From NCBI GenBank assembly GCA_964016885.1, contig OZ024741.1, positions 366,854,001 to 366,918,000 on the forward strand: a stretch of 64,000 nt of DNA. Reading direction: 5' to 3'. Position 1 is the first letter of the stretch; each line of letters opens with the position of its first letter. Origin of the DNA: Eledone cirrhosa (lineage: Eukaryota). The notes beneath the pieces are model-generated. The model searched no databases. It saw nothing but the letters and a program-made list of their open reading frames with translations, and was not told the origin of the DNA. Positions 4,128 through 62,202 of this stretch are shown one piece after another. The position numbers were made by a program, and so were the translations under genes.

Positions 4128-6765
4128 CTGTAGTAGCAATAGTAGTGGTGGTGATAGTGGTGGTGGTAGTGGATGGTAATAGTAGCAATAGTAGTGGTGG
4201 TGGTAGTGGGTGGTAATAGTAGCAATAGTAGTGGTGGTGGTAGTGGATGGTAATAGTAGCAATAGTAGTGGTGGTGGTAGTGGATGGTAATAGTAGCAAT
4301 AGTAGTGGTGGTGATAGTGGTGGTGGTAGTGGATGGCAATAGTAGCAATAGTAGTGGTGGTGGTAGTGGATGGTAATAGTAGCAATAGTAGTGGTGGTGA
4401 TAGTGGTGGTGGTAGTGGATGGCAATAGTAGCAATAGTAGTGGTGGTGGTAGTGGATGGTAATAGTAGCAATAGTAGTGGTGGTGGTAGTGGATGGTAAT
4501 AGTAGCAATAGTAGTGGTGGTGATAGTGGTGGTGGTAGTGGATGGTAATAGTAGCAATAGTAGTGGTGGTGGTAGTGGATGGCAATAGTAGCAATAGTAG
4601 TGGTGGTGATAGTGGTGGTGGTAGTGGATGGTAATAGTAGCAATAGTAGTGGTGGTGGTAGTGGATGGCAATAGTAGCAATAGTAGTGGTGGTGGTAGTG
4701 GATGGTAATAGTAGCAATAGTAGTGGTGGTGATAGTGGTGGTGGTAGTGGATGGTAATAGTAGCAATAGTAGTGGTGGTGGTAGTGGATGGTAATAGTAG
4801 CAATAGTAGTGGTGGTGATAGTGGTGGTGGTAGTGGATGGTAATAGTAGCAATAGTAGTGGTGGTGGTAGTGGATGGCAATAGTAGCAATAGTAGTGGTG
4901 GTGGTAGTGGATGGTAATAGTAGCAATAGTAGTGGTGGTGATAGTGGTGGTGGTAGTGGATGGTAATAGTAGCAATAGTAGTGGTGGTGGTAGTGGATGG
5001 TAATAGTAGCAATAGTAGTGGTGGTGATAGTGGTGGTGGTAGTGGATGGTAATAGTAGCAATAGTAGTGGTGGTGGTAGTGGATGGTAATAGTAGCAATA
5101 GTAGTGGTGGTGGTAGTGGATGGTAATAGTAGCAATAGTAGTGGTGGTGGTAGTGGATGGTAATAGTAGCAATAGTAGTGGTGGTGATAGTGGTGGTGGT
5201 AGTGGATGGTAATAGTAGCAATAGTAGTGGTGGTGGTAGTGGATGGTAATAGTAGCAATAGTAGTGGTGGTGATAGTGGTGGTGGTAGTGGATGGTAATA
5301 GTAGCAATAGTAGTGGTGGTGGTAGTGGATGGTAATAGTAGCAATAGTAGTGGTGGTGGTAGTGGTGGTGGTAGTGGATGGTAATAGTAGCAATAGTAGT
5401 GGTGGTGATAGTGGTGGTGGTAGTGGATGGTAATAGTAGCAATAGTAGTGGTGGTGGTAGTGGATGGTAATAGTAGCAATAGTAGTGGTGGTGGTAGTGG
5501 ATGGTAATAGTAGCAATAGTAGTGGTGGTGATAGTGGTGGTGGTAGTGGATGGTAATAGTAGCAATAGTAGTGGTGGTGATAGTGGTGGTGGTAGTGGAT
5601 GGTAATAGTAGCAATAGTAGTGGTGGTGGTAGTGGATGGTAATAGTAGCAATAGTAGTGGTGGTGATAGTGGTGGTGGTAGTGGATGGTAATAGTAGCAA
5701 TAGTAGTGGTGGTGATAGTGGTGGTGGTAGTGGATGGTAATAGTAGCAATAGTAGTGGTGGTGATAGTGGTGGTGGTAGTGGATGGTAATAGTAGCAATA
5801 GTAGTGGTGGTGATAGTGGTGGTGGTAGTGGATGGTAATAGTAGCAATAGTAGTGGTGGTGGTAGTGGATGGTAATAGTAGCAATAGTAGTGGTGGTGGT
5901 AGTGGATGGTAATAGTAGCAATAGTAGTGGTGGTGATAGTGGTGGTGGTAGTGGATGGTAATAGTAGCAATAGTAGTGGTGGTGGTAGTGGATGGTAATA
6001 GTAGCAATAGTAGTGGTGGTGATAGTGGTGGTGGTAGTGGATGGTAATAGTAGCAATAGTAGTGGTGGTGGTAGTGGATGGTAATAGTAGCAATAGTAGT
6101 GGTGGTGATAGTGGTGGTGGTAGTGGATGGTAATAGTAGCAATATTAGTGGTGGTGGTAGTGGATGGTAATAGTAGCAATAGTAGTGGTGGTGGTAGTGG
6201 ATGGTAATAGTAGCAATAGTAGTGGTGGTGATAGTGGTGGTGGTAGTGGATGGTAATAGTAGCAATAGTAGTGGTGGTGGTAGTGGATGGTAATAGTAGC
6301 AATAGTAGTGGTGGTGGTAGTGGATGGTAATAGTAGCAATAGTAGTGGTGGTGATAGTGGTGGTGGTAGTGGATGGTAATAGTAGCAATAGTAGTGGTGG
6401 TGGTAGTGGATGGTAATAGTAGCAATAGTAGTGGTGGTGATAGTGGTGGTGGTAGTGGATGGTAATAGTAGCAATAGTAGTGGTGGTGGTAGTGGATGGT
6501 AATAGTAGCAATAGTAGTGGTGGTGATAGTGGTGGTGGTAGTGGATGGTAATAGTAGCAATAGTAGTGGTGGTGGTAGTGGATGGTAATAGTAGCAATAG
6601 TAGTGGTGGTGGTAGTGGATGGTAATAGTAGCAATAGTAGTGGTGGTGGTAGTGGATGGTAATAGTAGCAATAGTAGTGGTGGTGGTAGTGGATGGTAAT
6701 AGTAGCAATAGTAGTGGTGGTGGTAGTGGATGGTAATAGTAGCAATAGTAGTGGTGGTGGTAGTG
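4128..6765. repeat. Minisatellite with 37-bp unit atggtaatagtagcaatagtagtggtggtggtagtgg and a 52-bp variant (+15 bp)
   Basis: Near-perfect units over ~2.6 kb, in two interspersed lengths. Confidence 0.95.
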
Positions 6766-9659: not shown

Positions 9660-11545
9660 GAAGCAAAGTTTAACGGGTAATTGAAGTCGGCGCAGAGTAC
9701 AGGGGCATTCCTTACCTGATGGAGTTAATGGTATTCTGGGTATGAAGACGTTTTCGCCGCAGCCTGTGAGAATTGTGGCTTCAATTACATGCGGCAGGAG
9801 GTTCTTACCACTAACCGTGTTCCGTTGCAGAGACGTGGTGGTTCCAGGTTCCTCAACAGCATCACTGGAGTCCCAACTTTGACTTGCAGTTCATGAGGTG
9901 GCAGTCCAGAGAGATCCAAGGAATTGAGGAATTGTGTGGAAAAATCGTCAACCTCATCTTTGTCCACAACTTTGTCCACAGATTTGTAGGTACGGAGGTG
10001 TCCAGGAATGCGTTGCAGAAGGTCCTCATTGAATTTTGCAATGGAGACATTTTTGGGAGCCAACATGACTCTATCGCACAGCCAACTCGTGTTTTTGTAG
10101 TTGATGGCCATATCGGGAAAGACAGAGACTGTGAGGTTGTCAACAGTGTCGACAACGGTGCCTACTTGCGAGACTGCTATTTCTCCAGCTGCATCTGAAA
10201 GTGCAGTGCCGTCACCAACTGTTAAGAGGTCCTTTGAGAGGTCGGCTGATGAGTGGTCGCCGAACAGTTGGGCTCTCCTGTTTGTTGTGAGGGTTAGAAT
10301 TGTCACTTCCTGCCACAGGGGAGATGACTTAATGCAAGCCCCCACAGTGTCAGCCGTGGTGGCTTTTGGAACAACTGGAAGAGTTTGTCGAAAATCGCCA
10401 GACAGCAGTAGAGGTACTCCTCCCATCGGCCGGTTGCATTCCCTGATGTCTCGTAGGGTCCTGTCTAACACCTCAAGGGACCCTTTATGGGCCATTGTGC
10501 ATTCATCCCACACAATTAGGTGGCATCTTTTCAAGACTTCCGCTTTGTTAGAGTCCTTGGTGATGTTGCAGGTTATTGTGTCGTCTGAAGTCGTGTTGAA
10601 TGGTAGTTTAAATGCGGAATGAGCTGTCCTACCTCCGGGCAGCAGAGTTGTGGCAATCCCAGAAGAAGCCACAGCCAGGGCGATTCCTTTTTGCCGTCGC
10701 ACTTTGGCGGCCCGCCGTTGATCCTGCAACAATTTCGGCTCGTTTTCATTGATGAACAGTTCAAGGGCGTCAACATCGTAGGCAGTTTCCTGAATTATGC
10801 CCGTCGGAAGTTTGTCTGAGCCCGTTTGCTGAACTTTTGGAAGTGCATAGAATGGAAGGTCATTGCCGCCAGCAGTTAGGATTTTGTCCTCGATGTCAAT
10901 GAGAGCTTTGTTGAAGAATTCGTCGCTGAGTCGTACGTCGGAATGAGGGAGTAGCAGTTGTCCTTGGTGTATGTAGTCATCGGAAAGGTCCTCTCTGCAT
11001 TTGTCCCATAAGGATACAGGGTCGCTTAACTCGCATGTCTGCAGTAGCACCGCAAAGAGTTGCTGAAGAGTTCGCGCTGAGCGTATTGTAGCTGCCTCCG
11101 CCAATGTCGCATCCCACTGAGCGCCATCTTCCAGTAGACCCTGTGTAAGGCAGGCTGCGCGGAATGAAGTACAAACCTCTCCGTTGATTGTTTTTGAAAG
11201 ATGTCGGTCCTACCACCTCATGCAATAGAAGGCGGAGATAAAAGCATTCCTGTTGGTTAGGATGAATGGTGAACACTCTCCCAAGGGTAGGGGACATTTT
11301 AATGTCTGGATGTCCCTCAACGGGTTGTCCTTTCACCCTTCTTAACCAAATTCTGTTGTTTGTGTTCCATGTGTAGTATGATGGCACCTGAGAGTAGAAG
11401 AGGGTCTTGGCGAAGGGATCGTTTCGGCATAACTTATAAAATGCTGTAAGTGTGGTGTCCTTGGGTTCCTCTGCTATCTCAGCAGCGGTGGAGGTGGTGA
11501 AGTAGACTCTTTGACCGTTTTCAAGGTGCACCACCAACTGTTTAA
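9660..11545 (-). pseudogene. Helitron RepHel remnant (Pif1-family helicase), frameshifted; Rep domain and Walker A missing
   Basis: ORFs 9785-11104 and 10977-11675 contain VASSGIATTLLPGGRTAHSAFKLP, LIVWDECTM, GDFRQTLPV, LLRNLEPPRLCNGTRL, VHLENGQRVYF and ECFYLRLLL. Confidence 0.9.
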
Positions 11546-15130: not shown

Positions 15131-15224
15131 TCCATTGATCTGAATGGATGAGAAGCAAAGTTAATCTTGGCAGGACTTGAACATAGAGCATAAGTAGCCA
15201 GAATAAATGCCATGGTATTTATCT

Positions 15225-16649
15225 TGATGGTCTAATGACACAACCAGTTCCTCTGATGGTCTAATGGCACAGCCAGTTCCATTGATGGTCTAATCACACT
15301 GCCAATTCCCTTGATGGTCTATCGACACTACCAATTCCAATGATGGTCTAACAACACAGCCAATTCCTTTGATGGACTTACAACACTGCTAGTTCTTTTG
15401 ATGGTCTAATAACACAGCCAATTCATTTAATGGTCTAATAACACAGCCAATTCCTTTGATGGTCTAATAACACAGCCAATTCCTTTGATGGTCTAATAAC
15501 ACAGCCAATTCATTTAATGGTCTAATAACACTGCCAATTCATTTAATGGTCTAATAACACAGCCAATTCCTTTGATGGTCTAATCACACTGCCAATTCCT
15601 TTGATGGTCTAATCACACTGCCAATTCCTTTGATGGTCTAATGACACAGCCAATTCCTTTGATGGTCTAATAACACAGCCAATTCCTTTGATGGTCTAAT
15701 CACACTGCCAATTCCTTTGATGGTCTAATGACACAGCCAATTCCTTTGATGGTCTAATCACACAGCCAATTCCTTTGATGGTCTAATCACACTGCCAATT
15801 CCTTTGATGATCTAATGACACAGCCAATTCCTTTGATGGTCTAATAACACAGCCAATTCCTTTGATGGTCTAATCACACTGCCAATTCCTTTGATGGTCT
15901 AATAACACAGCCAATTCCTTTGATGGTCTAATCACACTGCCAATTCCTTTGATGGTCTAATCACACTGCCAATTCCTTTGATGGTCTAATGACACAGCCA
16001 ATTCCTTTGATGGTCTAATAACACAGCTAATTCCTTTGATGGTCTAATCACACTGCCAATTCCTTTGATGGTCTAATCACACAGCCAATTCCTTTGATGG
16101 TCTAATCACACTGTCAATTCCTTTGATGGTCTAATGACACAGCCAATTCCTTTGATGGTCTAATGACACAGCCAATTCCTTTGATGGTCTAATAACACAG
16201 CCAATTCCTTTGATGGTCTATCGACACTACCAATTCCAATGATAGTCTAACGACACTGCCAATTCCTTTGATGGTCTAATCACACAGCCAATTCCTTTGA
16301 TGGTCTAATCACACTGCCAATTCCTTTGATGGTCTAATGACACAGCCAATTCCTTTGATGGTCTAATAACACAGCCAATTCCTTTGATGGTCTAATCACA
16401 CTGCCAATTCCTTTGATGGTCTAATCACACTGCCAATTCCTTTGATGGTCTAATCACAATACCAATTCCATTGATGGTCTAGCGACACTACCAATTCCAT
16501 TGATGGTCTAACAACTCTGCTAGTTCCTTTGATGGTCTAATGACACTGCCAGTTCCTTTGATGGTCTAAAGACACAGCCAGTTCCTCTGATGGTCTAATG
16601 ACACTGCCAATTCCTCTGATGGCCTAAAGACACTGTCAGTTCCTCACCA
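15225..16649 (-). repeat. 29-bp minisatellite (~49 copies) amplified from the 5' head of a SINE
   Basis: Unit gatggtctaatcacactgccaattccttt; continuous with a SINE-A-like body at ~15150-15225 on the minus strand. Confidence 0.9.
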
Positions 16650-16799
16650 AAAAACAAGTTAGATTTGATTATGTGACTGGTACACTGCCTACTGCCATAC
16701 CAAGAGGGAACCTCTATGTGGTCACTTGATCTGCTAGAAATCACATCTTGATGAAAATGAAGGACATTTTTTATAACAAAGTCCTAGATACATTATGAC

Positions 16800-17009
16800 T
16801 TAACTCTTTAGCATTTATATTACTCGATATTTACTATTGTATTTTCACGGTAAAGGCTTTACCTCACATAATTATCTGTGATTTTGAAATTATTTATTTT
16901 GGGAACAATACCTTAACATAAGTATGAGCAGCCAGTTATGGCTGGTTTGAACTGAAAGAGGTGAGAGAATTCTGGCTGTATATGGCCAGTTTAAATGCTA
17001 AAGGATTAA
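16800..17009 (+). mobile_element. piggyBac-type MITE family 1
   Basis: TTAA-ctctttagcattta ... taaatgctaaagga-TTAA. Confidence 0.85.
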
Positions 17010-25997: not shown

Positions 25998-26236
25998 CAT
26001 TGTTGCATAATATATGCAGACAGATGGTGCAGTGCACCTTACTGCTGCATTAGTGCTGCAGAAACTTGAGTCCGGGAACCTTATAGGCACCCGTTTTACG
26101 TGTGTTGTGTTGAGGCAAATAACTATGTGTATACTCTGGTAATGTATCTTACATTGCCCATTGAGTGTGTTGAGATACAACCGGTACTGGCATTGATAAA
26201 TATGCTGGGTCTGTCAACCCTTATTATATATATATA

Positions 26237-26339
<103 letters not shown>

Positions 26340-26407
26340 ATATTTGGGGAGGGTCATATTTGCGTAATATTGCCAGAATTAATAACATATATATATATAT
26401 ATATATA

Positions 26408-26848
26408 CATACTATTGTACGTCTGTATACATATATGTATGTACGTATACATACATACTTACATTTAAGTAAGTGCCATACTAAGAGTGAGAAATGAAAT
26501 TTCGTTTTCATTTTTTTTCAACTTATCCATTTCGGTATGCCTGACCGATTTAACTCACTCAATATGCAAATTAGGCTGCTCAGCCGTTAATTTTCATAAG
26601 GAAAGTATATACTTTCGAACGTTCAACTATCTGGCAGATGGGTATACGGTGCTGATGATAGCTAACAAGCTGGAAACTAGTACATCGTTCCTGTGGCAGT
26701 GTTGAACAAAAAGGTGACGTGGTTGCCTTAACACCGTATGGCATAAATTCAGGCTGTTCAGTTTGTTTACAAACGAACAAAGCGGCGTTATAATAAGCGT
26801 CCGCTAAACTGATGCGTGCATATATGTATGTGTACCTGTATGTATATA

Positions 26849-26881
<33 letters not shown>

Positions 26882-26996
26882 GCATGCTACTGTACGTCTG
26901 TATACATATATGTATGTACGTATACATACATACTTACATTTAAGTAAGTGCCATACTAAGAGTGAGAAATGAAATTTCGTTTTCATTTTTTTTCAA

Positions 26997-27001
<5 letters not shown>
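26408..27001 (+). mobile_element. Retrozyme/Penelope-pLTR-like non-coding element, 475-bp unit (~1.25 copies), inserted in (TA)n
   Basis: ~118-bp direct repeat at ~26408-26526 and ~26883-27001; central hammerhead; homologue at 34015-34748. Confidence 0.8.
26646..26688 (+). ncRNA. Minimal type I hammerhead ribozyme
   Basis: ACGGTG CTGATGA TAGCT aaca AGCTG GAAA CTAG TA CATCGT; palindromic stem III ACTAGT; GUA site. Confidence 0.85.
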
Positions 27002-27045
<44 letters not shown>

Positions 27046-27930: not shown

Positions 27931-27963
27931 CACACAACACACAACACACAACACACATATATA

Positions 27964-28039
27964 TAGAAGTGGTTAGACAACAGTTAGTTCACCATACCGA
28001 GAACAATTGTTTCACCTTAGCGGATCCTCAGCTCGTAAT
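27964..28039 (-). ncRNA. 76-bp hammerhead-bearing fragment in a TA/CA tract (hammerhead 27998-28035)
   Basis: Minus strand: CGAG CTGAGGA tCC gctaa GGt GAAAC aatt GTT CTCG; same family as 54756-54899. Confidence 0.65.
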
Positions 28040-28084
28040 ATATATATATATATATATATATCATCATTCATTTGATCATTTCAT

Positions 28085-28386: not shown

Positions 28387-29255
28387 ATATATACATATAT
28401 ATATATCATCATCCTCATTTAAAGTTCACTTTCCCCGGCTAGCAAGGGTTGGGCAGGTATACATAAATCAAGTCAGTACTGAAGTAAATTTACTGACCTC
28501 CCAGACAGGTCAAGGAGTCTGTATCTTGCTTTCATATTGTCATACATTGTATCAAATGCTCAGAAGAAGTTGACACAAACTGGAGGGTCCTCCTAAATCC
28601 TTGTTTGGCAAGTTTTCTATGACTGGATGCCCTTCCTAATACTGATCCCTTTATTGTGTGTACAGGGTACTTTTATCATATAGATCTCCAACACTATATA
28701 TATATATTCCCACATACAGACTTATTCCTTATTCAATAATCCTCTCTTCACCAAAATTCCAACTCAATAAAATTATCTTGAAACATTATAAAGTATTTAA
28801 GCCCTTCTCCAGTCTTATTTACAGATTTTGGTAATAGTTGTTTTGTTAAACCAATTATTTTGTTTATGTATATTCTTATTTTGTTGCACAATGCTATTAT
28901 ATTATTTTGGTATTGTATCAGAATATAGAATATAGATATCAGAAGAAAGAATGTTTGAGTTTCAGGCATCTATAAACTGAAAACTCTTGATCCAACATTT
29001 ATGCCAAATTTTGGCAGATACTTTGCCAACAAAAGATATAAATAATCATTATTTGTGTATCTATGTTTTATATTTATGCATGTTATATATATGTATATGA
29101 GTGTGCATATGTATGTGTATGTATGTGTGTATGTGTGTGTGTGTCTATGTGTATGATGTAATGAAATAAACTGATGTTGAATGTGGTACCGTCTCTCTTC
29201 CTTTTCTTAATGTGTATATATATATATATATATACATATATATACATATATATAC

Positions 29256-29333
<78 letters not shown>

Positions 29334-30412
29334 GAGAAAGCCTTTGACAGAGTTCCTCGTGCTGTAATCTGGTGGGCTCTTAGAAAACTAGGAGTAGATG
29401 AATGGCTTGTGAAAGCTGTACAAGCCATGTATAGGGGAGCAGTCAGCAAAGTTATGATTAGCAATGAGTATAGCGAGGAATTTAGTGTTCAGTTCGGTGT
29501 CCACCAGGGCTCCGTTCTTAGCCCTCTCCTGTTCATCATCGTCCTGCAGGCAATAACGGAGGAGTTTAAGACCGGATGCCCATGGGAACTCTTGTATGCA
29601 GATTACCTCACACTTATAGCTGAATCTATGGTAGAACTAGAGAAGAAATTCCAAACTTGGAAGCAGGGGCTAGAAAGAAAGGGTCTCAAAGTCAACATGA
29701 CAAAGACTAAGGTCCTTGTAAGTAGACGAGAAAACAGAACCCAGATCCCCTCAGGGAAATGGCCTTGCTCAGTATGTAGGAAAGGTGTAGGTAGGAACTC
29801 CATTCTCTGCCCCAAATGCAAACAATGGGTACACAAGAGATGTAGCGGGATCTCAGGGAGCTTAATTAAGAATGTAGGCTTCACATGTAGCAGCTGTGCT
29901 GGGACAGCAAGCAGCAAACAGCCACAGGAAACAAGTACCACCAATCTCTGGGAGGGTTCTGTAGAAACAGTAGACAGCTTCTGCTACCTAGGTGACCGAA
30001 TTAGCAGCGGAAGTGGATGTTCAGAAAGTACAATAACTAGGGTAAGAACGGGATGGAAGAAGTTCAGGGAACTACTGCCACTGCTAGCTGCAAAAGGCTT
30101 CTCCCTCAAAATGAAAGGCAGACTGTATGATGCGTGTATCCGAACAGCAATGTTACATGGTAGTGAGACCTGGGCGCTGAAGGTAGAAGACTTACGTAGA
30201 TTAGAAAGAAACGAAGCCTGCATGCTCCAATGGATGTGTAATAGTAATATACGCAAACGGCAAAGCATGAATGAATTGAGAGAGAGACTGAGCATAAGAG
30301 GAATCAAATGCTGTGTGCAGGAGAGGCGGTTGTGTTGGTATGGACATATGATGCCTATGAAGGATGACAGCTGCATAAAAAGGTGCAGAGCATTAGAAGT
30401 CAATGGAAACTG
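29334..30412 (+). pseudogene. RTE-clade LINE reverse transcriptase fragment, 5'-truncated
   Basis: [26 protein letters not shown] (normally YADD), GLKVNMTKTK, FCYLG, MLHGSETW, RRLCWYGH; the rest of the ORF runs into SINE and low-complexity DNA. Confidence 0.92.
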
Positions 30413-30769
30413 TTGGACCCCAGTCCCTATCATCTCATTTCTACAGCTGAGTAAACTGGAGCAATGTGAAATAAAATGTCTTGCTCAAGGAAACAACACA
30501 TCATTTATTTATATATATTTTTACATTTTACAAATTTTATCATACCATTATTTAAAGAAGTCATCTGGATATAATTTCCTTCTGTTGCTTATTTATTTAT
30601 TTTTTCTTCTTCTTCTCATCTTTTTCTTCTTCTTTTTCTTCTTCTTTTTCTTCTTCTTTTTCTTCTTCTTCTTGTTTGTTCCATAAGTAAGCTGAAATAA
30701 GGAAGTTACAATGATTTAATTGGATATGTTTAGGAATATACATCAAGGTTGGCATCTACACAGTTGTAG

Positions 30770-31068: not shown

Positions 31069-31302
31069 AAATGTTTTATTCAATAGAGATGATAAATATA
31101 TGACAGCCTTTTCTAATGATGTAATGTTTTGGTGGGGAGTGTTGTGATTCTTTTTATTTTGAATATAGTCTAATGAATTTTCTTGTAATTGTTGTTGTGG
31201 ACACAGCATGGCTGTATGGTTAAGAAGTTTACTTTGCAAATATGAGGTCCTGGGCTTGATCCTACTGCATGGAATCTTGGACAAATGTCATTTACCATAG
31301 CC

Positions 31303-31533
31303 TTAACCCTTTAGTATTTACATTAATCTATATATATATTATTATATTTTCATGGTAAAGGCTTTACCTCACATAATTATCTTACATAATATCGAATCTA
31401 TGAGATCTTGATGTTATTTATTTTGAGAACAATACCTTAACAATAGTATAAGTAGCCGATTACAGCCAGTTTTAACTGAAAGAGGTGAGAGAATTCTGGC
31501 CGGATACAGCTAGTTTAAATGCTAAAGGATTAA
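31303..31533 (+). mobile_element. piggyBac-type MITE family 1 nested in a SINE (~31200-31740)
   Basis: TTAA-ccctttag ... ctaaagga-TTAA interrupts catagcc|gtcaacc, which is contiguous in the 14575 copy. Confidence 0.85.
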
Positions 31534-32013
31534 GTCAACCCAAACCTTGAAGTGAAATTGGATACATATAATCTGTTTTGAAGCTTGTTGGATGGACTGT
31601 AACTGTAATTCAAATGGCCAGTCTTGTCACACACTGTCCTGTTAAATCTCTCTGAGAATTACATAAGAATTACACATCTGTTACACATTAATTCAGGAGC
31701 AGACAGTTCCTTTAATCAAATCAACTAGAACATTCATTGTTGAAACTGATGGAGGTCCATTCCAGATGTTATTTTTGCTGATATTTCGCTCCCAAGTCAG
31801 CCGTGTTAAGAAGATCTAAGATGAAAAACATTCTAGCTGTGACCATTTCATCTTTTTTTTTTTGTTTTGTTTTGTTTTAGGAATATCTGGAAAATAAACT
31901 AATGAAAGGGGTAATTAATTGTCTTCCACCATACCTTTGAGCCAACCATATCCTTGAAAGTGAAACTGTAAAAATTCATTAGTGGTATTATTCCTTGTTT
32001 TGGAGTGGTAGAC

Positions 32014-32240: not shown

Positions 32241-33368
32241 TCCATTCACCTTGGTTAACATCACCACCCCACCTAGCTGTTGAGTGCCTTTGGTAGAGTC
32301 CACTCTGTTGCAAATGTTCAGAACAGGTTTCCAGTCTAAATCTAACTTCTTTTTGTTCCCTACCAGAAAGGTGTGTAGCCTAGTGCTTATGGTGTTGCAC
32401 TTAAGGTCATAATATTGTGGGTTCCTGGACCAGGTGAGCCATTGTATTCTGGTCACATTACACATTACTCCAATCAGTTCAGCTGGAAATGAGTCCCAGC
32501 AATATCTGGGGGTAACTCTGCAATAGACTGGCATCCTGTCCAGGAGTGAAATGTGTACTCTAAAGTGCTTGAAACCAGGATAAGCTATGATTTGATGAGC
32601 CTCCAAACTTGGAACAGATTTCAAACTTTAGCGCTTACTTTTCCACTGAAGATTTCAACCCTTTGGCCACCAAGAAGTCATGCAATGCTATCATTAGTTT
32701 CAATGTGTGCTATGGCACATACCCAAGATGTGATGCAGAAGGATCAAACCTGGGACCTTGTTATTTCCCAGGGAACTTCTTAAACATTAAGCCATGCTAG
32801 CATCCAGATTCACTTCCCAGACCTAAGAGGAATGGGCACAATTATGAACTGTTTGCCAGCAGTTGAACTTCCAAACAGGAAACCCAGCAAACCATTTGTA
32901 AATTAAATACTAACTGTTCTGGCATACAACCAAGATATATTCCTCCTTCTCTCTGCTTTCTCCCTCTTTCTTTTCCTCACTCACTGGTTTGGTAGAAAAG
33001 CCTAAATAGATATGCTGCCAATCATAAGATATCTTCTGGAATTTTCATTGAAGAATTTTTAGTTTATTCATTTACTCTTTTACTGGTTTCAGCCATTAGA
33101 CAATAGCAATGTTGTGGCGCTGCTTTGATTTAGTCAATCATGTTGACCTCAGTATATATTTTTTAAAGTCAGGTACTTATTTCATCAATCTCTGTTTGTC
33201 AAACTGCTAAGTTACAGGATATAAACATAAACACAGACACACACATATGTATGAGCAAGACACAGTTATCTGATCTGACTTGCCTCACAATAGAACAACT
33301 CATTTAATCCATGCTAGCATGGAAAAATGGACATTAAAGGGTGACGATAATGATGATACATATATATG

Positions 33369-33432
<64 letters not shown>

Positions 33433-33438
<6 letters not shown>

Positions 33439-33834
33439 AGCGACACCTGCCATGTGCTTGGAGACAGCTATGCAGAGTTACCTACACATAGCTCTGACGT
33501 CACCAAAAATATTTCTCTCTCCGGCGGTGACTTGCGAAGAGACAACACGCATAATTTTGGAGCTGACTTCTGCCTATGAAGAGATAAGTCCTGCCTTCTC
33601 TCTCTCTTCTTTATACGCTCCAGTCTTGGAGTCAAGACCAACTCATCAACTACACCATCACAACACGTGGTAAAGTATTTCTATTGTGTTACTATTGACT
33701 CCTGTGATATAAAACTTTGTAAAACACGCACCAGCCATTCTATTCTTTTTAATATTATTATAAGTAATATATACACCAATACCAGTCATCTAAAGTGGTG
33801 ACCCTGACGTGATTCGAACACGCAGCCTTCTGAT
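33433..33834 (+). mobile_element. LTR-like segment followed by an extended tRNA-Trp primer-binding sequence, inside (TA)n
   Basis: 33796-33834 tggtgaccctgacgtgattcgaacacgcagccttctgat is the reverse complement of the eukaryotic tRNA-Trp 3' half including CCA; LTR termini are degenerate. Confidence 0.7.
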
Positions 33835-33954
33835 ATATATATATAAGTAGTTCCACAACAGTTAGTTTACCATTATCGGGGACAATTATTTCACTAAATT
33901 CATCCCATGGACTGAGTGCTGTACTGCTACCGATATAACCCACCAGTGTTCTAC

Positions 33955-34014
<60 letters not shown>

Positions 34015-34021
<7 letters not shown>

Positions 34022-34742
34022 TATGTACACGTACATACATATATGTATACAGACATACAGTAGTATGTATACATATATACATACATGCACACATATATAT
34101 ATGTACGTACCGCTTAATACGGGATGTTTGTTTGCAAACACACCGAGCATTATAATAAATGTTCGGTGAATCCATACGTACATATATATATGTGTGCATG
34201 TATGTATATATATATACTACTGTACGTCGGTATACATATATGTATGTACGTGTACATACTTATATTTAAGTAACAGCCGTACTAAGAGTGGGAAATGAAA
34301 TTTCGTTTCATTTTTTCCGTTTATCGTTTTCGGTGCACCTGGCCGATTAACCCACTCGATATGCAAATTGGGTTACTCAGCCGTTAATATGCATAAGGTA
34401 AGTATATACGTTCTACAATCTGGCAGGAAGGTATACGTTGCTGACGATAGCTAATAAGCTTGAAACTAGTACAGCATTCCTTTGTCAGTGTTGAACAAAC
34501 GAGCAACGATGGTTGCTAGACACTACGGCTTAATACGGGATGTTTGTTTACAAACACTCCGAGCATTATAATAAATGTTCGGTGAATCCATACGTACATA
34601 TATATATATGTGGGCATGTATGTATATATATATATACACACTACTGTACGTCTGTATAAATATATGTATGTACATGTACATACTTATATTTAAGTAACAG
34701 CCATACTAAGAGTGGGAAATGAAATTGTGTTTCATTTTTTAT

Positions 34743-34748
<6 letters not shown>
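34015..34748 (+). mobile_element. Retrozyme/Penelope-pLTR-like element, 416-bp unit (~1.5 copies) with inverted 5' segment, in (TA)n
   Basis: gcttaatacgggatg at 34112 and 34528; 34015-34109 is the reverse complement of ~34176-34265; central hammerhead. Confidence 0.82.
34435..34477 (+). ncRNA. Minimal type I hammerhead ribozyme
   Basis: ACGTTG CTGACGA TAGCT aata AGCTT GAAA CTAG TA CAGCAT. Confidence 0.82.
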
Positions 34749-34782
<34 letters not shown>

Positions 34783-35992: not shown

Positions 35993-36032
35993 ATGAGGAG
36001 CATCTGCAGTTTCTGTCTGCCAAATTTCCCCC

Positions 36033-36261
36033 TTAACCTTTTAGCATTTACATTACTCTATATTTACTATTGTATTTTTGTGGTAAAGGTTTTATCTTAC
36101 ATAATTATCTCATATAACAGCGAATCTATGAGATTTTGATGTTATTTATTTTGAGAACAACACCTTAACATCAGTATGAGCAGCCAGTTATGGCCAGTTT
36201 GAACAGAAAGAGGTAAGAAAATTCTGGCTGGATATGGCCAGTTTAAATGCTAAAGCATTAA
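36033..36261 (+). mobile_element. piggyBac-type MITE family 1
   Basis: TTAA-ccttttagcattta ... taaatgctaaagca-TTAA. Confidence 0.85.
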
Positions 36262-36643
36262 CTCATTGGTCAACCTCAATCCAAAACTATAGTAGAAGAC
36301 ACTTGCCCAAGGTGCCGTACAAAGTTACCTATCTTAGATCTCAGAACTACAAAGTTGTAAAGCAAACTCCTTAATAATTGTTTCTACTTTTGGGCACAAG
36401 GCCAGCAATTACCCAGTGCATTACTGGTACTTTATTTTATCGACCCCGTAAGGATGAAATGCAATAATAATATAACCATGCCTGCATCTATCATCTGGAA
36501 TTTCCATTGAAGATTTTTTTTTGTTTGTTTACTTTGAAGAATTTTTCAATTTATTTATCTTTTTTTATTTTTTTTAATTATCATTTGTATTTTTCTGATG
36601 CAGGATAATAACTGTTATCTTTATTCCATTCATTATTTTGATA

Positions 36644-41404: not shown

Positions 41405-44400
41405 CACTTCATTGTTCTTTCATACTTCCATTACTGCATACTTACTTTCTGTTACACTTCAACTCTTTCATACTTCCATTCCTGTATACTTACTTTCTGT
41501 TATACTTCCACTCTTTCGTAATTCCGTTCCAACATACTTACTTTCTGTTATACTTCCACGCTTTCATACTTCCATTCCTGCATACTTACTTTCTGTTACA
41601 CTTCAACTCTTTCAGAATTCCATTCCTGCATACTTACTTTCTGTTATACTTCCACTCTTTCATACTTCCATTACTGCATACTTACTTTCTGTTATACTTC
41701 CACTCTTTCATACTTCCATTACTGCATACTTACTTTCTGTTATACTTCCACTCTTTCATACTTCCATTCCTGTATACTTACTTTCTGTTATACTTCCACT
41801 CTTTCATAATTCCATTCCAGCATACTTACTTTCTGTTATACTTCCACTCTTTCATACTTCCATTCCTGCATACTTACTTTCTGTTATACTTCCACTCTTT
41901 CATACTTCCATTCCTGCATACTTAATTTCTGTTATACTTCCACTCTTTCATACTTCCATTCCTGCATACTTACTTTCTGTTATACTTCCACTCTTTCATA
42001 CTTCCATTCTTGCATACTTACGTTCTGTTATACTTCCACTCTTTCATACTTCTATTCCTGCATACCTACTTTCTGTTATACTTCCACTCTTTCATACTTT
42101 CATTCCTGCATACTTACTTTCTGTTATACTTCCACTCTTTCATACTTCCATTCTTGCATACTTACTTTCTGTTATACTTCCACTCTTTCATGCTTCCATT
42201 CCTGCATACTTACTTTCTGTTATACTTCCACTCTTTCATACTTCCATTCTTGCATACTTACTTTATGTTATACTTCCACTCTTTCATGCTTCTATTCCTG
42301 CATACTTACTTTCTGTTATACTTCCACTCTTTCATACTTCCATTCCTGCATACATACTTTCTGTTATACTTCCACTCTTTCATACTTCCATTCCTGCATA
42401 CCTACTTTCTGTTATACTTCCACTCTTTCATAATTCCATTTCTGCATACTTACTTTCTGTTATACTTCCACTCTTTCATACTTCCATTCCTGCATACCTA
42501 CTTTCTGTTATACTTCCACTCTTTCATACTTCCATTCCTGCATACATACTTTCTGTTATACTTCCACGCTTTCATACTTCCATTCCTGCATACTTACTTT
42601 CTGTTATACTTCCACTCTTTCATACTTCTATTGCTGCATACCTACTTTCTGTTATACTTCCACTCTTTCATGCTTCCATTCCTGCATACTTACTTTCTGT
42701 TATACTTCCACTCTTTCATAATTCCATTCCTGCATACTTACTTTATGTTATACTTCCACTCTTTCATACTTCCATTCCTGCATACTTACTTTCTGTTATA
42801 CTTCCACTCTTTCATACTTCCATTCCTGCATACTTACTTTCTGTTATACTTCCACTCTTTCATAATTGCATTCCTGCATACTTACTTTCTGTTATACTTC
42901 CACTCTTTCATACTTCCATTCCTGCATACTTACTTTCTGTTATACTTCAACTCTTTCATGCTTCCATTCCTGCATACTTACTTTCTGTTATACTTCCACT
43001 CTTTCATACTTCCATTCCTGCATACTTACTTTCTGTTACACTTCAACTCTTTCAGAATTCCATTACTGCCTACCTACTTTCTGTTATACTTCCACTCTTT
43101 CATAATTCCATTCCTGCATACTTACTTTCTGTTATACTTCCACTCTTTCATACTTCCATTCCTGCATACTTACTTTCTGTTATACTTCCACTCTTTCATA
43201 ATTCCATTCCTGCATACTTTCTTTCTGTTATACTTCCACTCTTTCATACTTCCATTTCTGCATACTTACTTTCTGTTATACTTCCACTCTTTCATAATTC
43301 CATTCCTGCATACTTACTTTCTGTTATACTTCCACTCTTTCATACTTCCATTCCTGCATACTTACTTTCTGTTATACTTCCACTCTTTCATACTTCCATT
43401 CCTGCATACCTACTTTCTGTTATACGTCCACTCTTTCATACTTCCATTCCTGCATACTTACTTTCTGTTATACTTCCACTTTTTCATACTTCCATACCTG
43501 CATACTTACTTTCTGTTATACTTCCATTCCTGCATACATACTTTCTGTTATACTTCCACTCTTTCATACTTCCATTCTTGCATACTTACTTCTGTTATAC
43601 TTCCACTCTTTCATACTTCCATTCCTGCATACTTACCTTCTGTTATACTTCCACTCTTTCATACTTCCATTCCTGCATACTTACTTTCTGTTATACTTCC
43701 ACTCTTTCATAATTGCATTCCTGCATACTTACTTTCTGTTATACTTCCATTACTGCATACTTACTTTCTGTTATACTTCCACTCTTTCATAATTCCATTC
43801 CTGCATACATACTTTCTGTTATACTTCCGCGCTTTCCTACTTCCATTCCTGCATACCTACTTTCTGTTATACTTCCACTCTTTCAAACTTCCAGTCCTGC
43901 ATACTTACTTTCTGTTATACTTCCACTTTTTCATACTTCCATACCTGCATACTTACTTTCTGTTATACTTCCATTCCTGCATACATACTTTCTGTTATAC
44001 TTCCACTCTTTCATACTTCCATTCCTGCATACTTACTTTCTGTTATACTTCCACTCTTTCATAATTGCATACCTGCATACTTACTTTCTGTTATACTTTC
44101 ACTCTTTCATACTTCCATTCCTGCATACTTACTTTCTGTTATACTTCCACTCTTTTATAATTCCATTCCTGCATACCTGCATTCTTACTTTCTGTTATAC
44201 TTCCATTACTGCATACTTACTTTCTGTTATACTTCCACTCTTTCATACTTCCATTCCTGCATACTTACTTTCAGTTATACTTCCACTCTTTCATACTTCC
44301 ATTCCTGCATACTTACTTTCTGTTATACTTCCACTCTTTCATAATTGCATTCCTGCATACTTACTTTCTGTTATACTTCCACTCTTTCATACTTCCATTC

Positions 44401-47400
44401 CTGCATACTTACTTTCTGTTATACTTCAACTCTTTCATGCTTCCATTCCTGCATACTTACTTTCTGTTATACTTCCACTCTTTCATACTTCCATTCCTGC
44501 ATACTTACTTTCTGTTATACTTCCACTCTTTCATGCTTCCATTCCTGCATACTTACTTTCTGTTATACTTCCACTCTTTCATACTTCCATTCCTGCATAC
44601 TTACTTTCTGTTACACTTCAACTCTTTCAGAATTCCATTACTGCCTACCTACTTTCTGTTATACTTCCACTCTTTCATACTTCCATTCTTGCATACTTCT
44701 GTTATACTTCCACTCTTTCATACTTCCATTCCTGCATACTTACCTTCTGTTATACTTCCACTCTTTCATACTTCCATTCCTGCATACTTACTTTCTGTTA
44801 TACTTCCACTCGTTCATAATTGCATTCCTGCATACTTACTTTCTGTTATACTTCCATTACTGCATACTTACTTTCTGTTATACTTCCACTCTTTCATAAT
44901 TCCATTCCTGCATACATACTTTCTGTTATACTTCCGCGCTTTCCTACTTCCATTCCTGCATACCTACTTTCTGTTATACTTCCACTCTTTCAAACTTCCA
45001 GTCCTGCATACTTACTTTCTGTTATACTTCCACTTTTTCATACTTCCATACCTGCATACTTACTTTCTGTTATACTTCCATTCCTGCATACATACTTTCT
45101 GTTATACTTCCACTCTTTCATGCTTCCATTCTTGCATACTTTTTCTGTTATACTTCCACTCTTTCATACTTCCATTCCTGCATACTTACCTTCTGTTATA
45201 CTTCCACTCTTTCATACTTCCATTCCTGCATACTTACTTTCTGTTATACTTCCACGCTTTCCTACTTCCATTCCTGTATACATACTTTCTGTTATACTTC
45301 CACTCTTTCATACTTCCATTCCTGCATACTTACTTTCTGTTATACTTCCACTCTTTCATAATTGCATTCCTGCATACTTACTTTCTGTTATACTTCCATT
45401 ACTGCATACTTACTTTCTGTTATACTTCCACTCTTTCATACTTCCATTCCTGCATACTTACTTTCTGTTATACTTCCACTCTTTCATACTTCCATTCCTG
45501 CATACTTACTTTCTGTTATACTTCCACTCTTTCAAACTTCCATACCTGCATACTTACTTTCTGTTATACTTCCACTCTTTCATACTTCCATTCCTGCATA
45601 CTTACTTTCTGTTATACTTCCACTCTTTCATGCTTCCATTCCTCCATACTTACTTTCTGTTATACTTTCACTCTTTCATACTTCCATTCCTGCATACTTA
45701 CTTTCTGTTACACTTCAACTCTTTCAGAATTCCATTACTGCATACCTACTTTCTGTTATACTTCCACTCTTTCATAATTCCATTCCTGCATACTTACTTT
45801 CTGTTATACTTCCACTTTTTCATACTTCCATACCTGCATACTTACTTTCTGTTATACTTCCAATCCTGCATACATACTTTCTGTTATACTTCCACTCTTT
45901 CATACTTCCATTCTTGCATACTTACTTCTGTTATACTTCCACTCTTTCATACTTCCATTCCTGCATACTTACCTTCTGTTATACTTCCACTCTTTCATAC
46001 TTCCATTCCTGCATACTTACTTTCTGTTATACTTCCACGCTTTCCTACTTCCATTCCTGCATACATACTTTCTGTTATACTTCCATTCCTGCATACTTAC
46101 TTTCTGTTATACTTCCACTCTTTCATAATTGCATTCCTGCATACTTACTTTCTGTTATACTTCCATTACTGCATACTTACTTTCTGTTATACTTCCACTC
46201 TTTCGTAATTCCATTCCTGCATACTTACTTTCTGTTATACTTCCACTCTTTCATACTTCCATTCCTGCATACTTACTTTCTGTTATACTTCCACTCTTTC
46301 ATACTTCCATTCCTGCATACTTACTTTCTGTTATACTTCCACTCTTTCATACTTCCATTCCTGCATACTTACTTTCTGTTATACTTCCACTCTTTCATAC
46401 TTCCATTCCTGCATACTTACTTTCTGTTATACTTTCACTCTTTCATACTTCCATTCCTGCATACCTACTTTCTGTTATACTTCAACTCTTTCATACTTCC
46501 ATTCCTGCATACTTACTTTCTGTTATACTTCCACTCTTTCATACTTCCATTCCTGCATAATTACTTTCTGTTATACTTCCACTCTTTCATACTTCCATTC
46601 CTGCATACTTACTTTATGTTATACTTCCACTCTTTCATACTTCCATTCTTGCATACTTACTTCTGTTATACTTCCACTCTTTCATACTTCCATTCCTGAT
46701 TACTTACTTTCTGTTATATTTCCACTCTTTCATACTTCCATTCCTGCATACTTACTTTCTGTTATACTTCCACTCTTTCATACTTCCATTCCTGCATACT
46801 TACTTTCTGTTATACTTCCACTCTTTCATACTTCCATTCCTGCATACCTACTTTCTGTTATACTTTCACTCTTTCATAATTCCATTCCTGCATACTTACT
46901 TTCTGTTATACTTCCACTCTTTCATACTTCCGTTCCTGCATACCTACTTTCTGTTATACTTTCACTCTTTCATACTTCCATTCCTGCATACTTACTTTCT
47001 GTTATACTTCTACTCTTTCATACTTCCATTTCTGCATACTTACTTTCTGTTATACTTCCACTCTTTCATACTTCCATTCCTGCATACTTACTTTCTGTTA
47101 TACTTCCACTCTTTCATACTTCTATTCCTGCATACTTACTTTCTGTTATACTTCCACTCTTTCATACTTCCATTCCTGCATACTTACTTTCTGTTATACT
47201 TCCACTCTTTCATACTTCCATTCCTGCATACTTACTTTCTGTTATACTTCCACTCTTTCATACTTCTATTCCTGCATACCTACTTTCTGTTATACTTCCA
47301 CCCTTTCATACTTCCATTCCTGCATACTTACTTCTGTTATACTTCCACTCTTTCATACTTCTATTAATGCATATTTATTTTCTGTTATACTTTCACTCTT

Positions 47401-48850
47401 TCATACTTCCATTCCTGCATACTTACTTTCTGTTATACTTCCACACCTCCATTCCTGCATACTTACTTTCTGTTATACTTCCACTCTTTCATACTTCCAT
47501 TCCTGCATACTTACTTTCTGTTATACTTCTACTCTTTCATACTTCCATTCCTGCATACTTACTTTCTGTTATACTTCCACTCTTTCATACTTCCATTCCT
47601 GCATACCTACTTTCTGTTATACTTCCACTCTTTCATAATTCCATTCCTGCATACTTACTTTCTGTTATACTTCCACTCTTTCATACTTCCATTCTTGCAT
47701 ACTTACTTCTGTTATACTTCCACTCTTTCATACTTCTATTAATGCATATTTATTTTCTGTTATACTTTCACTCTTTCATACTTCCATTCCTGCATACTTA
47801 CTTTCTGTTATACTTCCACTCTTCCATACTTCTATTCCTGCATACTTACTTTCTGTTATACTTCCACTTTTTCATACTTCTTTCTTGCATACTTTCTGTT
47901 ATACTTCCACCCTTTCATACTTCCATTACTGCATACTTACTTTCTGTTACACTTCAACTCTTTCAGAATTCCATTCCTGCATACTTACTTTCTGTTATAC
48001 TTCCACTCTTTCATACTTCTATTCCTGCATACCTACTTGCTGTTATACTTCCACCCTTTCATACTTCCATTACTGCATACTTACTTTCTGTTATACTTCC
48101 ACTCTTTCATACTTCCATTCCTGCATACTTACTTTCTGTTATACTTCCACTCTTTCACACTACCATTCCTGCATACCTACTTTCTGTTATACTTCCACTC
48201 TTTCATACTTCCATTCCTGCATACTTACTTCTGTTATACTTCCACTCTTTCACACTACCATTCCTGCATACTTACTTTCTGTTATACTTCCACTCTTTCA
48301 TACTTCCATTTCTGCATACTTACTTCTGTTATACTTCCACTCTTTCATACTTCCATTACTGCATACTTACTTTCTGTTATACTTCCACTCTTTCATACTT
48401 CCATTCCTGCATACTTACTTTCTCTTATACTTCCACTCTTTCATACTTCCATTCCTCCATACTTACTTTCTGTTATACTTCCACTCTTTCATACTTCCAT
48501 TCCTGCATACTTACTTTCTGTTATACTTCCACTCTTTCATACTTCCATTCCTGCATACATACTTTCTGTTATACTTCCGCGCTTTCCTACTTCCATTCCT
48601 GCATACCTACTTTCTGTTATACTTCCACTCTTTCATACTTCCATTCCTGCATACTTACTTTCTGTTATACTTCTACTCTTTCATACTTCCATTCCTGCAT
48701 ACTTACTTTCTGTTATACTTCCACTCTTTCATACTTCCATTCCATTGTTCCCCCACCCTTTCATACTCCCACCATTTCATACTTCCATTCTGTTATGCTA
48801 CCATGTCATACTCACATTCTGTCATATTCTATTATACTCCCATTCTACCA
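41405..48850. repeat. 48-bp satellite (~150 units) built from three 16-bp subrepeats
   Basis: Unit catacttccattcctg-catacttactttctgt-tatacttccactcttt; explains the 16-aa periodic ORFs. Confidence 0.97.
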
Positions 48851-51778: not shown

Positions 51779-51993
51779 TTAACTCTTTAGCATTTAAACC
51801 GGCCATATCTGGCCAGAATTCTCTCACCTCTTTCTGTTCAAATTGGTTGTAACTAGCTGCTCACATTGATGTTAAGGTATTGTTCTCAAAATAAATAATA
51901 TCAAAATCTCATAGATGCGATATTAAATGAGATAATTATGTGAGATAAAGCTTTTACCATGAAAATATAATAGTTAATATAGAGTAGGGTTAA
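51779..51993 (-). mobile_element. piggyBac-type MITE family 1
   Basis: Reverse-oriented copy, TTAA at both ends. Confidence 0.8.
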
Positions 51994-54655: not shown

Positions 54656-54686
<31 letters not shown>

Positions 54687-54755
54687 TATATAGTGGTAGA
54701 ACACGGAAGGTAATATCCATAGTGGTAGAGCACTCAGTCCATGGGACGAGTTAGG

Positions 54756-54899
54756 TAGAAGTGGTTACACAACAGTTAGTTCACCATGCCGAGAACAATT
54801 GTTTCACCTTAACGGATCCTCAGCTCGTAATCTGAGGACCCGCTAAGGTGAAACAATTGTTCTCGGTATGGTGAACTAACTGTTGTGTAACCACTTCTA
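54756..54899. ncRNA. Palindrome (68-bp arms, 8-nt spacer) of two opposed hammerhead-bearing halves; complete hammerhead 54790-54827 (-)
   Basis: Minus strand CGAG CTGAGGA tCC gttaa GGt GAAAC aatt GTT CTCG; the plus-strand half lacks the 5' stem I strand. Confidence 0.75.
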
Positions 54900-55033
54900 T
54901 ATAAATATATATATAAGTATATATATGTATGTATGTAGCAGTAATAACAAAAATAACAAAAATAACAAAACAAATGGCACAATAGATGGAATGGAAGAAA
55001 TATATTAGTTTAAGACTTTAAATATCAGGAAGA

Positions 55034-61439: not shown

Positions 61440-62202
61440 AAATTTGGAATTTGAAATATATTCACCACAATGCATGTAACTATAATAGTAGTTGATAACT
61501 AAGAATTAACCCTTTAGCATTTACATTACTCTATATATACTATTGTATTTTCATGGTAAAGGCTTTATCTCACATAATATCAAATCTATGAGATTTTGAT
61601 ATTAAATATTTTGAGAACAATATCTTAATATCAGTATGAATGACCAGTTACAGCCAGTTTGAATAGAAAGAGGTGAGAGAATTCTAGCCGGATACAGCTG
61701 GTTTAAATGTTAAAGGGTTAAATAATTATATAAATTAGGTAAAGTATTCCTGGAGATAGAAAAAAGTGGAGAGAAATACCTGCATGGAGTTGAAACACAC
61801 ATCTCTCATATGCCAAACAAATATATTTTGCAAATGTTCTTACGGCATATGAGAGATATGTTTTGATTCCTAACAGACATTTTTCTCCACTTTTTTCAAT
61901 CTCCAGGAATAGTTTACCTTATTTATTTAACTATTTAATCTTTAGTTATCAACTACTAGGTGGATTGGCAGTATCGGTAGAGGGTTGGACGCCATGCTTT
62001 GCATCATAACCCTTTACAATCTGAGTTCAAATCCTGCCAAGGATAACTCTGCCTTTCATCTTTATGGGGTTGATGAAATAAAGCACTAGTAAAGTATTGG
62101 GGTTGATTCAATCGACTTTCTCCTCCCCCCAAATTACTGGCCTTGTGCTTATAGTAGAAATCATTATAGTTATTTGCACTGTGGCAAATATATTTTCAAA
62201 TT
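61440..62202. mobile_element. Old foldback element with MITE 1 (61506-61721) in the left arm and SINE A (~61959-62167) in the right arm
   Basis: Arms re-pair once both inserts are removed (tagtagttgataactaa / ttagttatcaactacta; ctctcatatgcc / ggcatatgagag). Confidence 0.75.

What the first reader, a model, noticed from the sequence alone, without database searches (positions are those of the whole stretch)
33433..33834. LTR-like DNA fused to a 39-nt copy of mature tRNA-Trp that stops at the anticodon loop
After ~360 bp of unique LTR-like sequence comes TGG (anti-CCA) and complementarity to tRNA-Trp through the acceptor, T and variable arms and the 3' anticodon stem. It ends at A38, immediately before G37. 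A normal PBS is at most ~18 nt because RT halts at m1A58. This looks like plus-strand strong-stop cDNA that read through position 58, stopped at a modified G37 and was captured in a (TA)n tract, with no internal retrotransposon sequence. tRNA-Trp priming is typical of CsRn1-like Gypsy elements. The final AT also overlaps the TA tract.
Basis: partly seen in the sequence, partly recalled or inferred. Interest (0 to 1): 0.7.

Follow-up and report, generated by a model that had tools for sequence, protein, structure and literature searches.

The report
Over-read tRNA-Trp primer fossil beside LTR
A 39-base DNA copy of the tail half of a tryptophan tRNA, CCA end included, sits at the end of a 360-base segment between two TA repeats, and is most likely a stray copying intermediate of an LTR jumping gene whose reverse transcriptase ran past its normal stop; the segment's identity as an LTR is inferred, not shown.

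Summary
Observation confirmed. 33796-33834 is TGG plus a 36/36 match to positions 73 to 38 of a eukaryotic tRNA-Trp(CCA) gene that has no encoded CCA. That is 21 nt beyond an 18-nt primer site, and the match breaks at G37.

The upstream 361 bp is LTR-sized, with weak CsRn1-type end motifs (3' 6/7, background 4-12%; 5' 5/7). It has no AATAAA and no second copy in the window, and no Gypsy genes were found.

The stop at modified G37 is confounded: position 38 is also the first point after the normal stop that offers 2-nt homology to a (TA)n tract.

Best reading (0.5): a dead-end plus-strand strong-stop cDNA of a tRNA-Trp-primed Gypsy element, patched into a microsatellite. Each ingredient is known: HIV-1 stops at position 37, Ty3 makes dead-end strands, Ty1 cDNA is captured at breaks. 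Rivals: a truncated element with an inherited long primer site, or a LINE-made tRNA retrocopy. The scan noted similar fossils on other DNA (tRNA-Thr, tRNA-Leu). Modest interest.

The parts
33356..33434 (.). Left (AT)n microsatellite, about 39.5 units
   Evidence: Tandem Repeats Finder
33435..33795 (+). 361-bp segment, 40% GC, single copy in the window; putative LTR (start uncertain, 33431-33436; putative end 33794, then a 1-nt spacer)
   Evidence: No other copy. 5' CsRN1 motif 5/7 at 33431 or 33436; 8 of 182 TA-tract ends in the window reach 5/7 or more. CpG o/e 0.64 from 9 CpG, against 0.07-0.39 in three flanking or background regions. No AATAAA. No long terminal inverted repeat, best 3 bp.
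33495..33502 (+). Perfect CRE-type palindrome (label recalled), possible U3 enhancer motif
   Evidence: 2 occurrences in 64 kb; weak, post hoc
33708..33713 (+). TATAAA, 86 nt before the putative LTR end; one mismatch from AATAAA; possible polyadenylation-signal variant or TATA box
   Evidence: function inferred
33788..33794 (+). 6/7 match to the published CsRN1 3' integrase motif MSYYAMA, ending in AAA, 1 nt before the primer site
   Evidence: with the motif from PMC3601003 Table 3; AAA ends reported for CsRn1-like LTRs; background 4-6% (spacer 0-1) or 8-12% (spacer 0-3)
33796..33813 (+). Canonical-length (18 nt) primer-binding site for tRNA-Trp: anti-CCA TGG plus the complement of positions 73-59
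33814..33834 (+). 21-nt over-extension: complement of tRNA-Trp positions 58 to 38, with no mismatch opposite position 58; the last 2 nt are shared with the TA tract
   Evidence: 36/36 to L001:438-473
33833..33845 (.). Short alternating A/T tract at the right junction
33846..33957 (.). Separate small TA-flanked interspersed repeat; not internal sequence of the putative LTR element
   Evidence: Copies at 27957-28068 and 54656-54908, about 83-86% identical

Best explanation
This is most likely a dead-end plus-strand strong-stop cDNA (one whole putative LTR plus a copy of the tRNA primer) from a tRNA-Trp-primed, probably CsRn1-like, Gypsy element, likely joined into a (TA)n tract by host end-joining rather than by integrase. 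Shown: a CCA-tailed tRNA-Trp copy covering positions 76 to 38, fused 1 nt after an LTR-sized segment, with TA tracts on both sides and no internal genes found. Inferred steps: (1) the segment is U3-R-U5; (2) plus-strand synthesis from the PPT copied the attached primer and read through position 58, probably on an under-methylated tRNA since there is no misincorporation; (3) it halted at m1G37, or was trimmed or joined at the first available 2-nt homology, which falls at the same place; (4) the strand was too long for strand transfer, was displaced, and was captured at a break in the microsatellite through short A/T homology at both ends.
For: The match runs exactly from CCA to position 38 and breaks at G37; a random end would fall at 38-40 in about 3 of 56 cases. 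Orientation and order are those of plus-strand strong-stop DNA. The segment length (361) lies within the 146-381 bp seen in the CsRn1-like LTR rows I was shown. There is a 3' att-like motif ending AAA 1 nt before the PBS (6/7; AAA ends) and a 5' motif at 5/7. No target-site duplication longer than 4 nt brackets the tRNA piece alone, and the first T4 run on the tRNA-sense strand is 71 nt after CCA, unlike a tRNA gene trailer. Precedents: a minor HIV-1 product ends at modified position 37 and cannot act in strand transfer (PMC13191261); Ty3's first plus strong-stop strand copies tRNA, is displaced, and dead-end products accumulate (PMC5371799); Ty1 cDNA intermediates, with a 3' LTR hotspot, are captured at breaks by NHEJ (PMC11372161); human/bovine tRNA-Trp has m1G37 and animals mostly have G37 (PMC7200024).
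Against: The LTR identity is unproven: no AATAAA, no clean TG...CA pair next to the PBS (best terminal repeats 3 bp), the 3' motif is matched by 4-12% of background positions, and the gammaretroviral motif also scores 6/7. No relative of the segment was obtained. The end point is equally predicted by microhomology. There is no misincorporation signature at position 58, and the TGG could come from an element's own PBS, so an RNA template is not directly proven. Flanking duplications cannot be read because both flanks are TA repeats, so integrase insertion is not excluded. Modification of the host's tRNA-Trp was not measured.
Confidence: 0.5

Rival explanations
1. Remnant of an integrated LTR element, or small subfamily, that had already fixed an over-long 39-nt primer site after an aberrant strand transfer. 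It inserted into (TA)n, and everything downstream was later deleted at the 2-nt homology with the TA tract.
For: The anatomy is the same. TA-on-both-sides flanks are compatible with a hidden 4-bp duplication (CsRn1-like TSD is 4 bp). An unchecked earlier scan note (e1-7807674) describes a 45-nt tRNA-Thr site passed to a small subfamily.
Against: It needs two events, and the deletion must remove the internal region and second LTR exactly up to the tRNA copy. No internal fragment was found in the window. In HIV-1, products ending at position 37 are reported not to serve in strand transfer.
Confidence: 0.2
2. A retrocopy of mature tRNA-Trp made by a LINE-type or repair-associated reverse transcriptase. 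It was primed at the CCA end on genomic DNA at the edge of an unrelated 361-bp segment and cut short at m1G37. The resemblance to LTR plus PBS is then accidental.
For: It explains CCA, the direction and the stop at 38 without any LTR. A non-LTR-type RT gene lies in the window (29211-30683). The LTR hallmarks are weak. 41 segments of this size range sit between TA tracts in the window.
Against: No target-site duplication longer than 4 nt around the tRNA piece. The described tailless tRNA retropseudogenes are 3'-truncated and flanked by TSDs (PMC5322556), the opposite polarity. The LTR-like length and both CsRn1-like end motifs would be coincidence.
Confidence: 0.2
3. A DNA-level product: the 3' half of a tRNA-Trp gene or tRNA-derived SINE, or a recombination between an 18-nt PBS and a tRNA-Trp gene, cut off by the microsatellite.
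For: Perfect identity to a gene sequence with no reverse-transcription error at position 58. The end point coincides with 2-nt homology to the tract. SINEs are abundant in the window (repeat families; SINE label recalled).
Against: CCA is present although the compared gene does not encode it. There is no pol III terminator near the 3' end, no 5' half of the tRNA anywhere in the window, and no second copy, as a SINE family would likely give.
Confidence: 0.1

Closest known systems
Over-extended plus-strand strong-stop DNA of HIV-1 (product P5, stop at ms2t6A37 of tRNA-Lys3; PMC13191261 section on strand transfer)
   Same: LTR followed by a primer copy that passes position 58 and ends at 38; described as a minor product that cannot serve in strand transfer.
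   Different: That is an in vitro intermediate of a retrovirus with tRNA-Lys3. Here it is a fixed genomic sequence with tRNA-Trp, and the stop would be m1G37.
Ty3 dead-end (+) strong-stop DNA and Ty1 cDNA fragments captured at double-strand breaks (PMC5371799; PMC11372161)
   Same: A displaced LTR-plus-tRNA-copy strand, and non-integrase capture of LTR-derived cDNA intermediates by end joining.
   Different: The yeast products copy only 12 nt of the primer and were seen at induced breaks. A 39-nt copy in a natural microsatellite was not in the passages I read.
CsRn1 clade of Ty3/Gypsy (CsRn1, PwRn1, AgCR, Kabuki; PMC2582038, PMC3601003, PMC6238403)
   Same: tRNA-Trp primer site, LTR length, and a 3' end in AAA next to the PBS.
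   Different: No gag (CHCC) or pol, no second LTR, no PPT, no readable 4-bp TSD, an imperfect 5' TGT, and a primer site of 39 nt rather than about 12-18.
Tailless tRNA retropseudogenes (PMC5322556) and TRIMs with tRNA-derived LTRs, Helenus (PMC10886601)
   Same: A truncated tRNA copy in the genome ending at a loop; tRNA sequence tied to an LTR.
   Different: Tailless copies keep the 5' part, lose the 3' end and have TSDs. Helenus carries a tRNA-like promoter inside two LTRs. Here only the CCA-bearing 3' half lies outside a single putative LTR, at the PBS position.

Membership tests
CsRn1-clade Gypsy element | Primer site complementary to the tRNA-Trp 3' end | tested here: met
   feature from PMC2582038
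CsRn1-clade Gypsy element | LTR termini TGT...AAA/ATA, motifs TGTGGYG / MSYYAMA | tested here: inconclusive
   3' 6/7 with 1-nt spacer (background 4-12%); 5' 5/7, reached by 8 of 182 TA-tract ends
CsRn1-clade Gypsy element | AATAAA signal in the LTR | tested here: not met
   No AATAAA; TATAAA at 33708 is one mismatch away
CsRn1-clade Gypsy element | Gag with CHCC and PR-RT-RH-IN between two LTRs, PPT before the 3' LTR | tested here: not met
   No second copy; no such Pfam domains in 135 ORFs. This locus is not an intact member.
CsRn1-clade Gypsy element | 4-bp target-site duplication | tested here: inconclusive
   Both flanks are TA repeats, so any 4-6 nt duplication is trivial
CsRn1-clade Gypsy element | Segment is the LTR of full-length elements elsewhere in the genome | not testable with these tools
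Over-extended plus-strand strong-stop DNA | Primer copy continuous from CCA past position 58 | tested here: met
   Positions 76 to 38; 36/36 to the gene plus TGG
Over-extended plus-strand strong-stop DNA | End set by a modified base at 37 | tested here: inconclusive
   Ends at 38-40, but 39 nt is also the first microhomology point after 18 nt; host modification not measured
Tailless tRNA retropseudogene | 3'-truncated tRNA flanked by TSDs | tested here: not met
   The 3' end with CCA is kept and the 5' half is missing; no TSD over 4 nt
tRNA-derived SINE | 5' tRNA head with A and B boxes, body and tail, many copies | tested here: not met
   No 5' tRNA half in the window; a single copy; genome-wide count not possible
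Helenus / TRIM | Two LTRs with PBS and PPT between them; tRNA-like promoter inside the LTR | tested here: not met
   One segment only; no B box inside 33435-33795 on either strand

The most novel reading that the evidence does not exclude
LTR-plus-tRNA(76 to 38) junctions recur across this genome as independent germline captures of dead-end Gypsy plus-strand cDNA in (TA)n tracts. That would be an integrase-free route that seeds single LTRs, and the end points would form a fossil read-out of primer-tRNA modifications (incomplete m1A58, m1G37) in an invertebrate germ line. Alternatively, the LTR-plus-half-tRNA unit is itself a small mobile family.
Probability: 0.15. Interest if true: 0.6.

Novelty: new variant of a known kind. 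Interest (0 to 1): 0.3.

Why it matters
If right, a reverse-transcription intermediate so far described from test tubes and yeast particles has been fixed in an animal germ line. Some apparent solo LTRs would then come from cDNA capture rather than LTR-LTR recombination, and tRNA modification sites could be read from genome sequence alone. As a single inert 400-bp fossil with an unverified LTR it changes little. Its value depends on a genome-wide count of such junctions.

Tried and rejected
Host genome: none held.

ARAGORN found 0 tRNA genes in the window, and Rfam found no tRNA match in 33300-34100, only AT-repeat artefacts below gathering score; a half tRNA is too short for these tools.

The exact 36-mer gave 0 matches in viral contigs.

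Sequencing runs: 13 of 16 listed rows hold part of 33433-33834, none half of its 38 words. The best are X1 0.26 and X2 0.21, both one sample of one study, which may be the source of the window. Ten words are more than the nine 31-mers that fit in the tRNA part, so some upstream or junction sequence is probably held, but this says nothing on copy number. No RNA holder was listed.

The 361-bp segment had no match in phage or plasmid records, which is of little weight. A prokaryotic att-site reading was rejected because the tRNA and its context are eukaryotic.

Host naming through the neighbouring RT protein failed: named hits were Hydractinia and Branchiostoma at 47-59% identity, plus mislabelled metagenome entries. 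That the window looks like an octopus genome is my recall from its repeats and was not tested.

The downstream 112 bp was rejected as internal element sequence because it is a separate repeat. MITE identity of the 361-bp segment was rejected because it has no real terminal inverted repeat.

A window-wide B-box pattern returned nothing, even at the known T-arm, so it was uninformative.

The supplements of PMC6238403 hold family tables; I searched two name terms only. File 2 (picture PDF) and the pptx could not be read.

Paper searches returned 0 papers under strict term counts.

Full report
Observation. The window reads as repeat-rich animal DNA: about 35-40% GC, 118 tandem-repeat rows, no tRNA genes. 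Between a long (AT)n tract ending at 33434 and a short one starting at 33833 lie 361 bp of unique-looking sequence, then TGG at 33796 and a tRNA-like stretch ending at 33834. The 36 nt after TGG matched exactly one metagenome stretch, L001:438-473, inside a gene that ARAGORN calls tRNA-Trp(cca) at 402-473. The gene is not followed by CCA in DNA. The match is 36/36, runs from position 73 to 38 and breaks at G37; chance is about 3e-17. An 18-nt primer site would end at 33813, so 21 further nucleotides (positions 58 to 38) are copied, with no mismatch opposite 58. L001 is from an unnamed eukaryote, not necessarily the host.

The end point. The last two matched bases are shared with the TA tract, so the real end is 38, 39 or 40. 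Human/bovine cytosolic tRNA-Trp has m1G37 and G37 predominates in animals (PMC7200024, passages and Table 1). m1G37 gives a reverse-transcription signature in zebrafish tRNAs (PMC11417395, passages). A random end would land on 38-40 in about 3 of 56 cases. However, of 57 end points examined (18-74 nt), only 18, 39 and 57 nt offer 2-nt homology to (TA)n. Microhomology joining therefore predicts the same end, and one locus cannot separate the two. The read-through past 58 is real either way, since the canonical end offered the same homology.

Is the upstream segment an LTR? It has no other copy in the window. The indirect signs are weak. The length fits the CsRn1-like LTR rows shown (146-381 bp; PMC2582038, passages). 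The seven bases ending 1 nt before TGG match the CsRN1 3' motif 6/7 (PMC3601003 Table 3, passages) and end in AAA, as reported for these elements (section read), but 4-12% of background positions do as well and the gammaretroviral motif also scores 6/7. The 5' motif scores 5/7 at 33431 or 33436, which 8 of 182 TA-tract ends in the window reach. CpG o/e is 0.64 from only 9 CpG, against 0.07-0.39 in three background regions and 0.36 and 0.70 in two transposon ORFs. There is no AATAAA, one TATAAA 86 nt from the end, and no terminal inverted repeat over 3 bp. I put the LTR identity at about 0.7.

Surroundings. Pfam on 135 of 137 high-complexity ORFs found a Pif1 helicase (9788-11209, minus strand), an RT with PHD finger (29211-30683, plus strand) and one sub-threshold zinc finger. 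It found no Gypsy gag, protease, RNase H or integrase. The 112 bp right of the junction is a separate TA-flanked repeat with copies at 27957-28068 and 54656-54908. Forty-one segments of 60-700 bp in the window are bracketed by TA tracts, so the setting is ordinary. No duplication over 4 nt brackets the tRNA piece, duplications around the whole insert cannot be read in TA repeats, and the first T4 run on the tRNA-sense strand is 71 nt after CCA. The run index lists partial holders only (best 10 of 38 words, one sample) and does not give copy number.

Mechanism. The best reading (0.5) is a plus-strand strong-stop cDNA of a tRNA-Trp-primed Gypsy element that read through position 58, ended at 38, could not complete strand transfer and was patched into a broken microsatellite through short A/T homologies. 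The copy and its limits are shown; the LTR identity, the cause of the stop and the capture route are inferred. Precedents from papers: HIV-1 makes a minor product ending at ms2t6A37 that does not serve in strand transfer (PMC13191261, section read whole). Loss of m1A58 lets synthesis run on (PMC8599865, passages). In Ty3 the first plus strand, which copies the primer, is displaced and dead-end products accumulate (PMC5371799, section 2.2 read). Ty1 cDNA intermediates with a 3' LTR hotspot are captured at breaks by NHEJ (PMC11372161, passages). The rivals are a truncated element with an inherited long primer site (0.2), a LINE- or repair-made retrocopy of mature tRNA-Trp beside an unrelated segment (0.2) and a DNA-level tRNA-gene or SINE remnant (0.1).

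Comparison with known families. The locus works like an over-extended strong-stop product. It is not an intact CsRn1 member: no coding region, second LTR or PPT. CsRN1 is reported in 9 of 12 cephalopod species (PMC6238403, passages) and as a large family in Octopus bimaculoides (supplement row). That matters only if the host is an octopus, which is my recall from its repeats and was not confirmed (PMC13282606, passages, added nothing). Tailless tRNA retropseudogenes are 3'-truncated with TSDs (PMC5322556 and PMC3747384, passages). Helenus TRIMs carry tRNA inside paired LTRs (PMC10886601, first of six parts and passages). Neither fits.

Novelty. In ten searches I saw no paper describing a chromosomal single LTR fused to a primer copy ending at position 38. 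Three of these returned nothing under strict term counts, most hits were seen as listings only, and the library lacks most subscription and older papers. I recall, without having seen them here, 1980s-90s reports of tRNA primer copies at junctions of circular retroviral DNA. The scan's own unchecked notes describe similar fossils in other genomes (e1-7807674, tRNA-Thr; e1-7857085, tRNA-Leu); no note matched this sequence or genome. Verdict: a real feature and a new variant of a known kind, interest 0.3. It would deserve about 0.6 if such junctions prove recurrent with a modification-defined end point (probability 0.15).

Noticed in passing
window 33846-33957, 27957-28068, 54656-54908: A small TA-flanked repeat family. 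The copy at 54656-54908 holds its first ~70 bp twice in inverted orientation (a long palindrome), the 33846 copy lacks that middle part, and the 27957 copy stops at the palindrome centre.
   Followed up: partly
window 9788-11209 (-): A 474-aa stop-free frame with PIF1 helicase and Pif1 2B domains, CpG o/e 0.70; likely a Helitron-type fragment (label inferred).
   Followed up: no
window 29211-30683 (+): A reverse transcriptase plus PHD finger frame starting right after a TA tract; non-LTR (RTE-like, label recalled), with named relatives in Hydractinia and Branchiostoma.
   Followed up: partly
window 33955-34782 and 26222-27035: An ~830-bp TA-rich repeat, 72% identical between the two places, with an internal ~220-bp duplication (34108-34324 and 34524-34748, 91%).
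   Followed up: no
window 41415-48743; 15224-16627; 4131-6751: Large minisatellite arrays: a 48/144-bp unit over 7.3 kb with strong strand skew, a 29-bp unit x48, and a GGT/AGT-rich higher-order array.
   Followed up: no
window 31301-31537, 36031-36265, 1652-1880, 16799-17009, 51779-51986, 61506-61727 and others: Abundant ~230-bp interspersed repeats at 76-87% identity, SINE-like; they resemble octopus SINEs by recall only.
   Followed up: no
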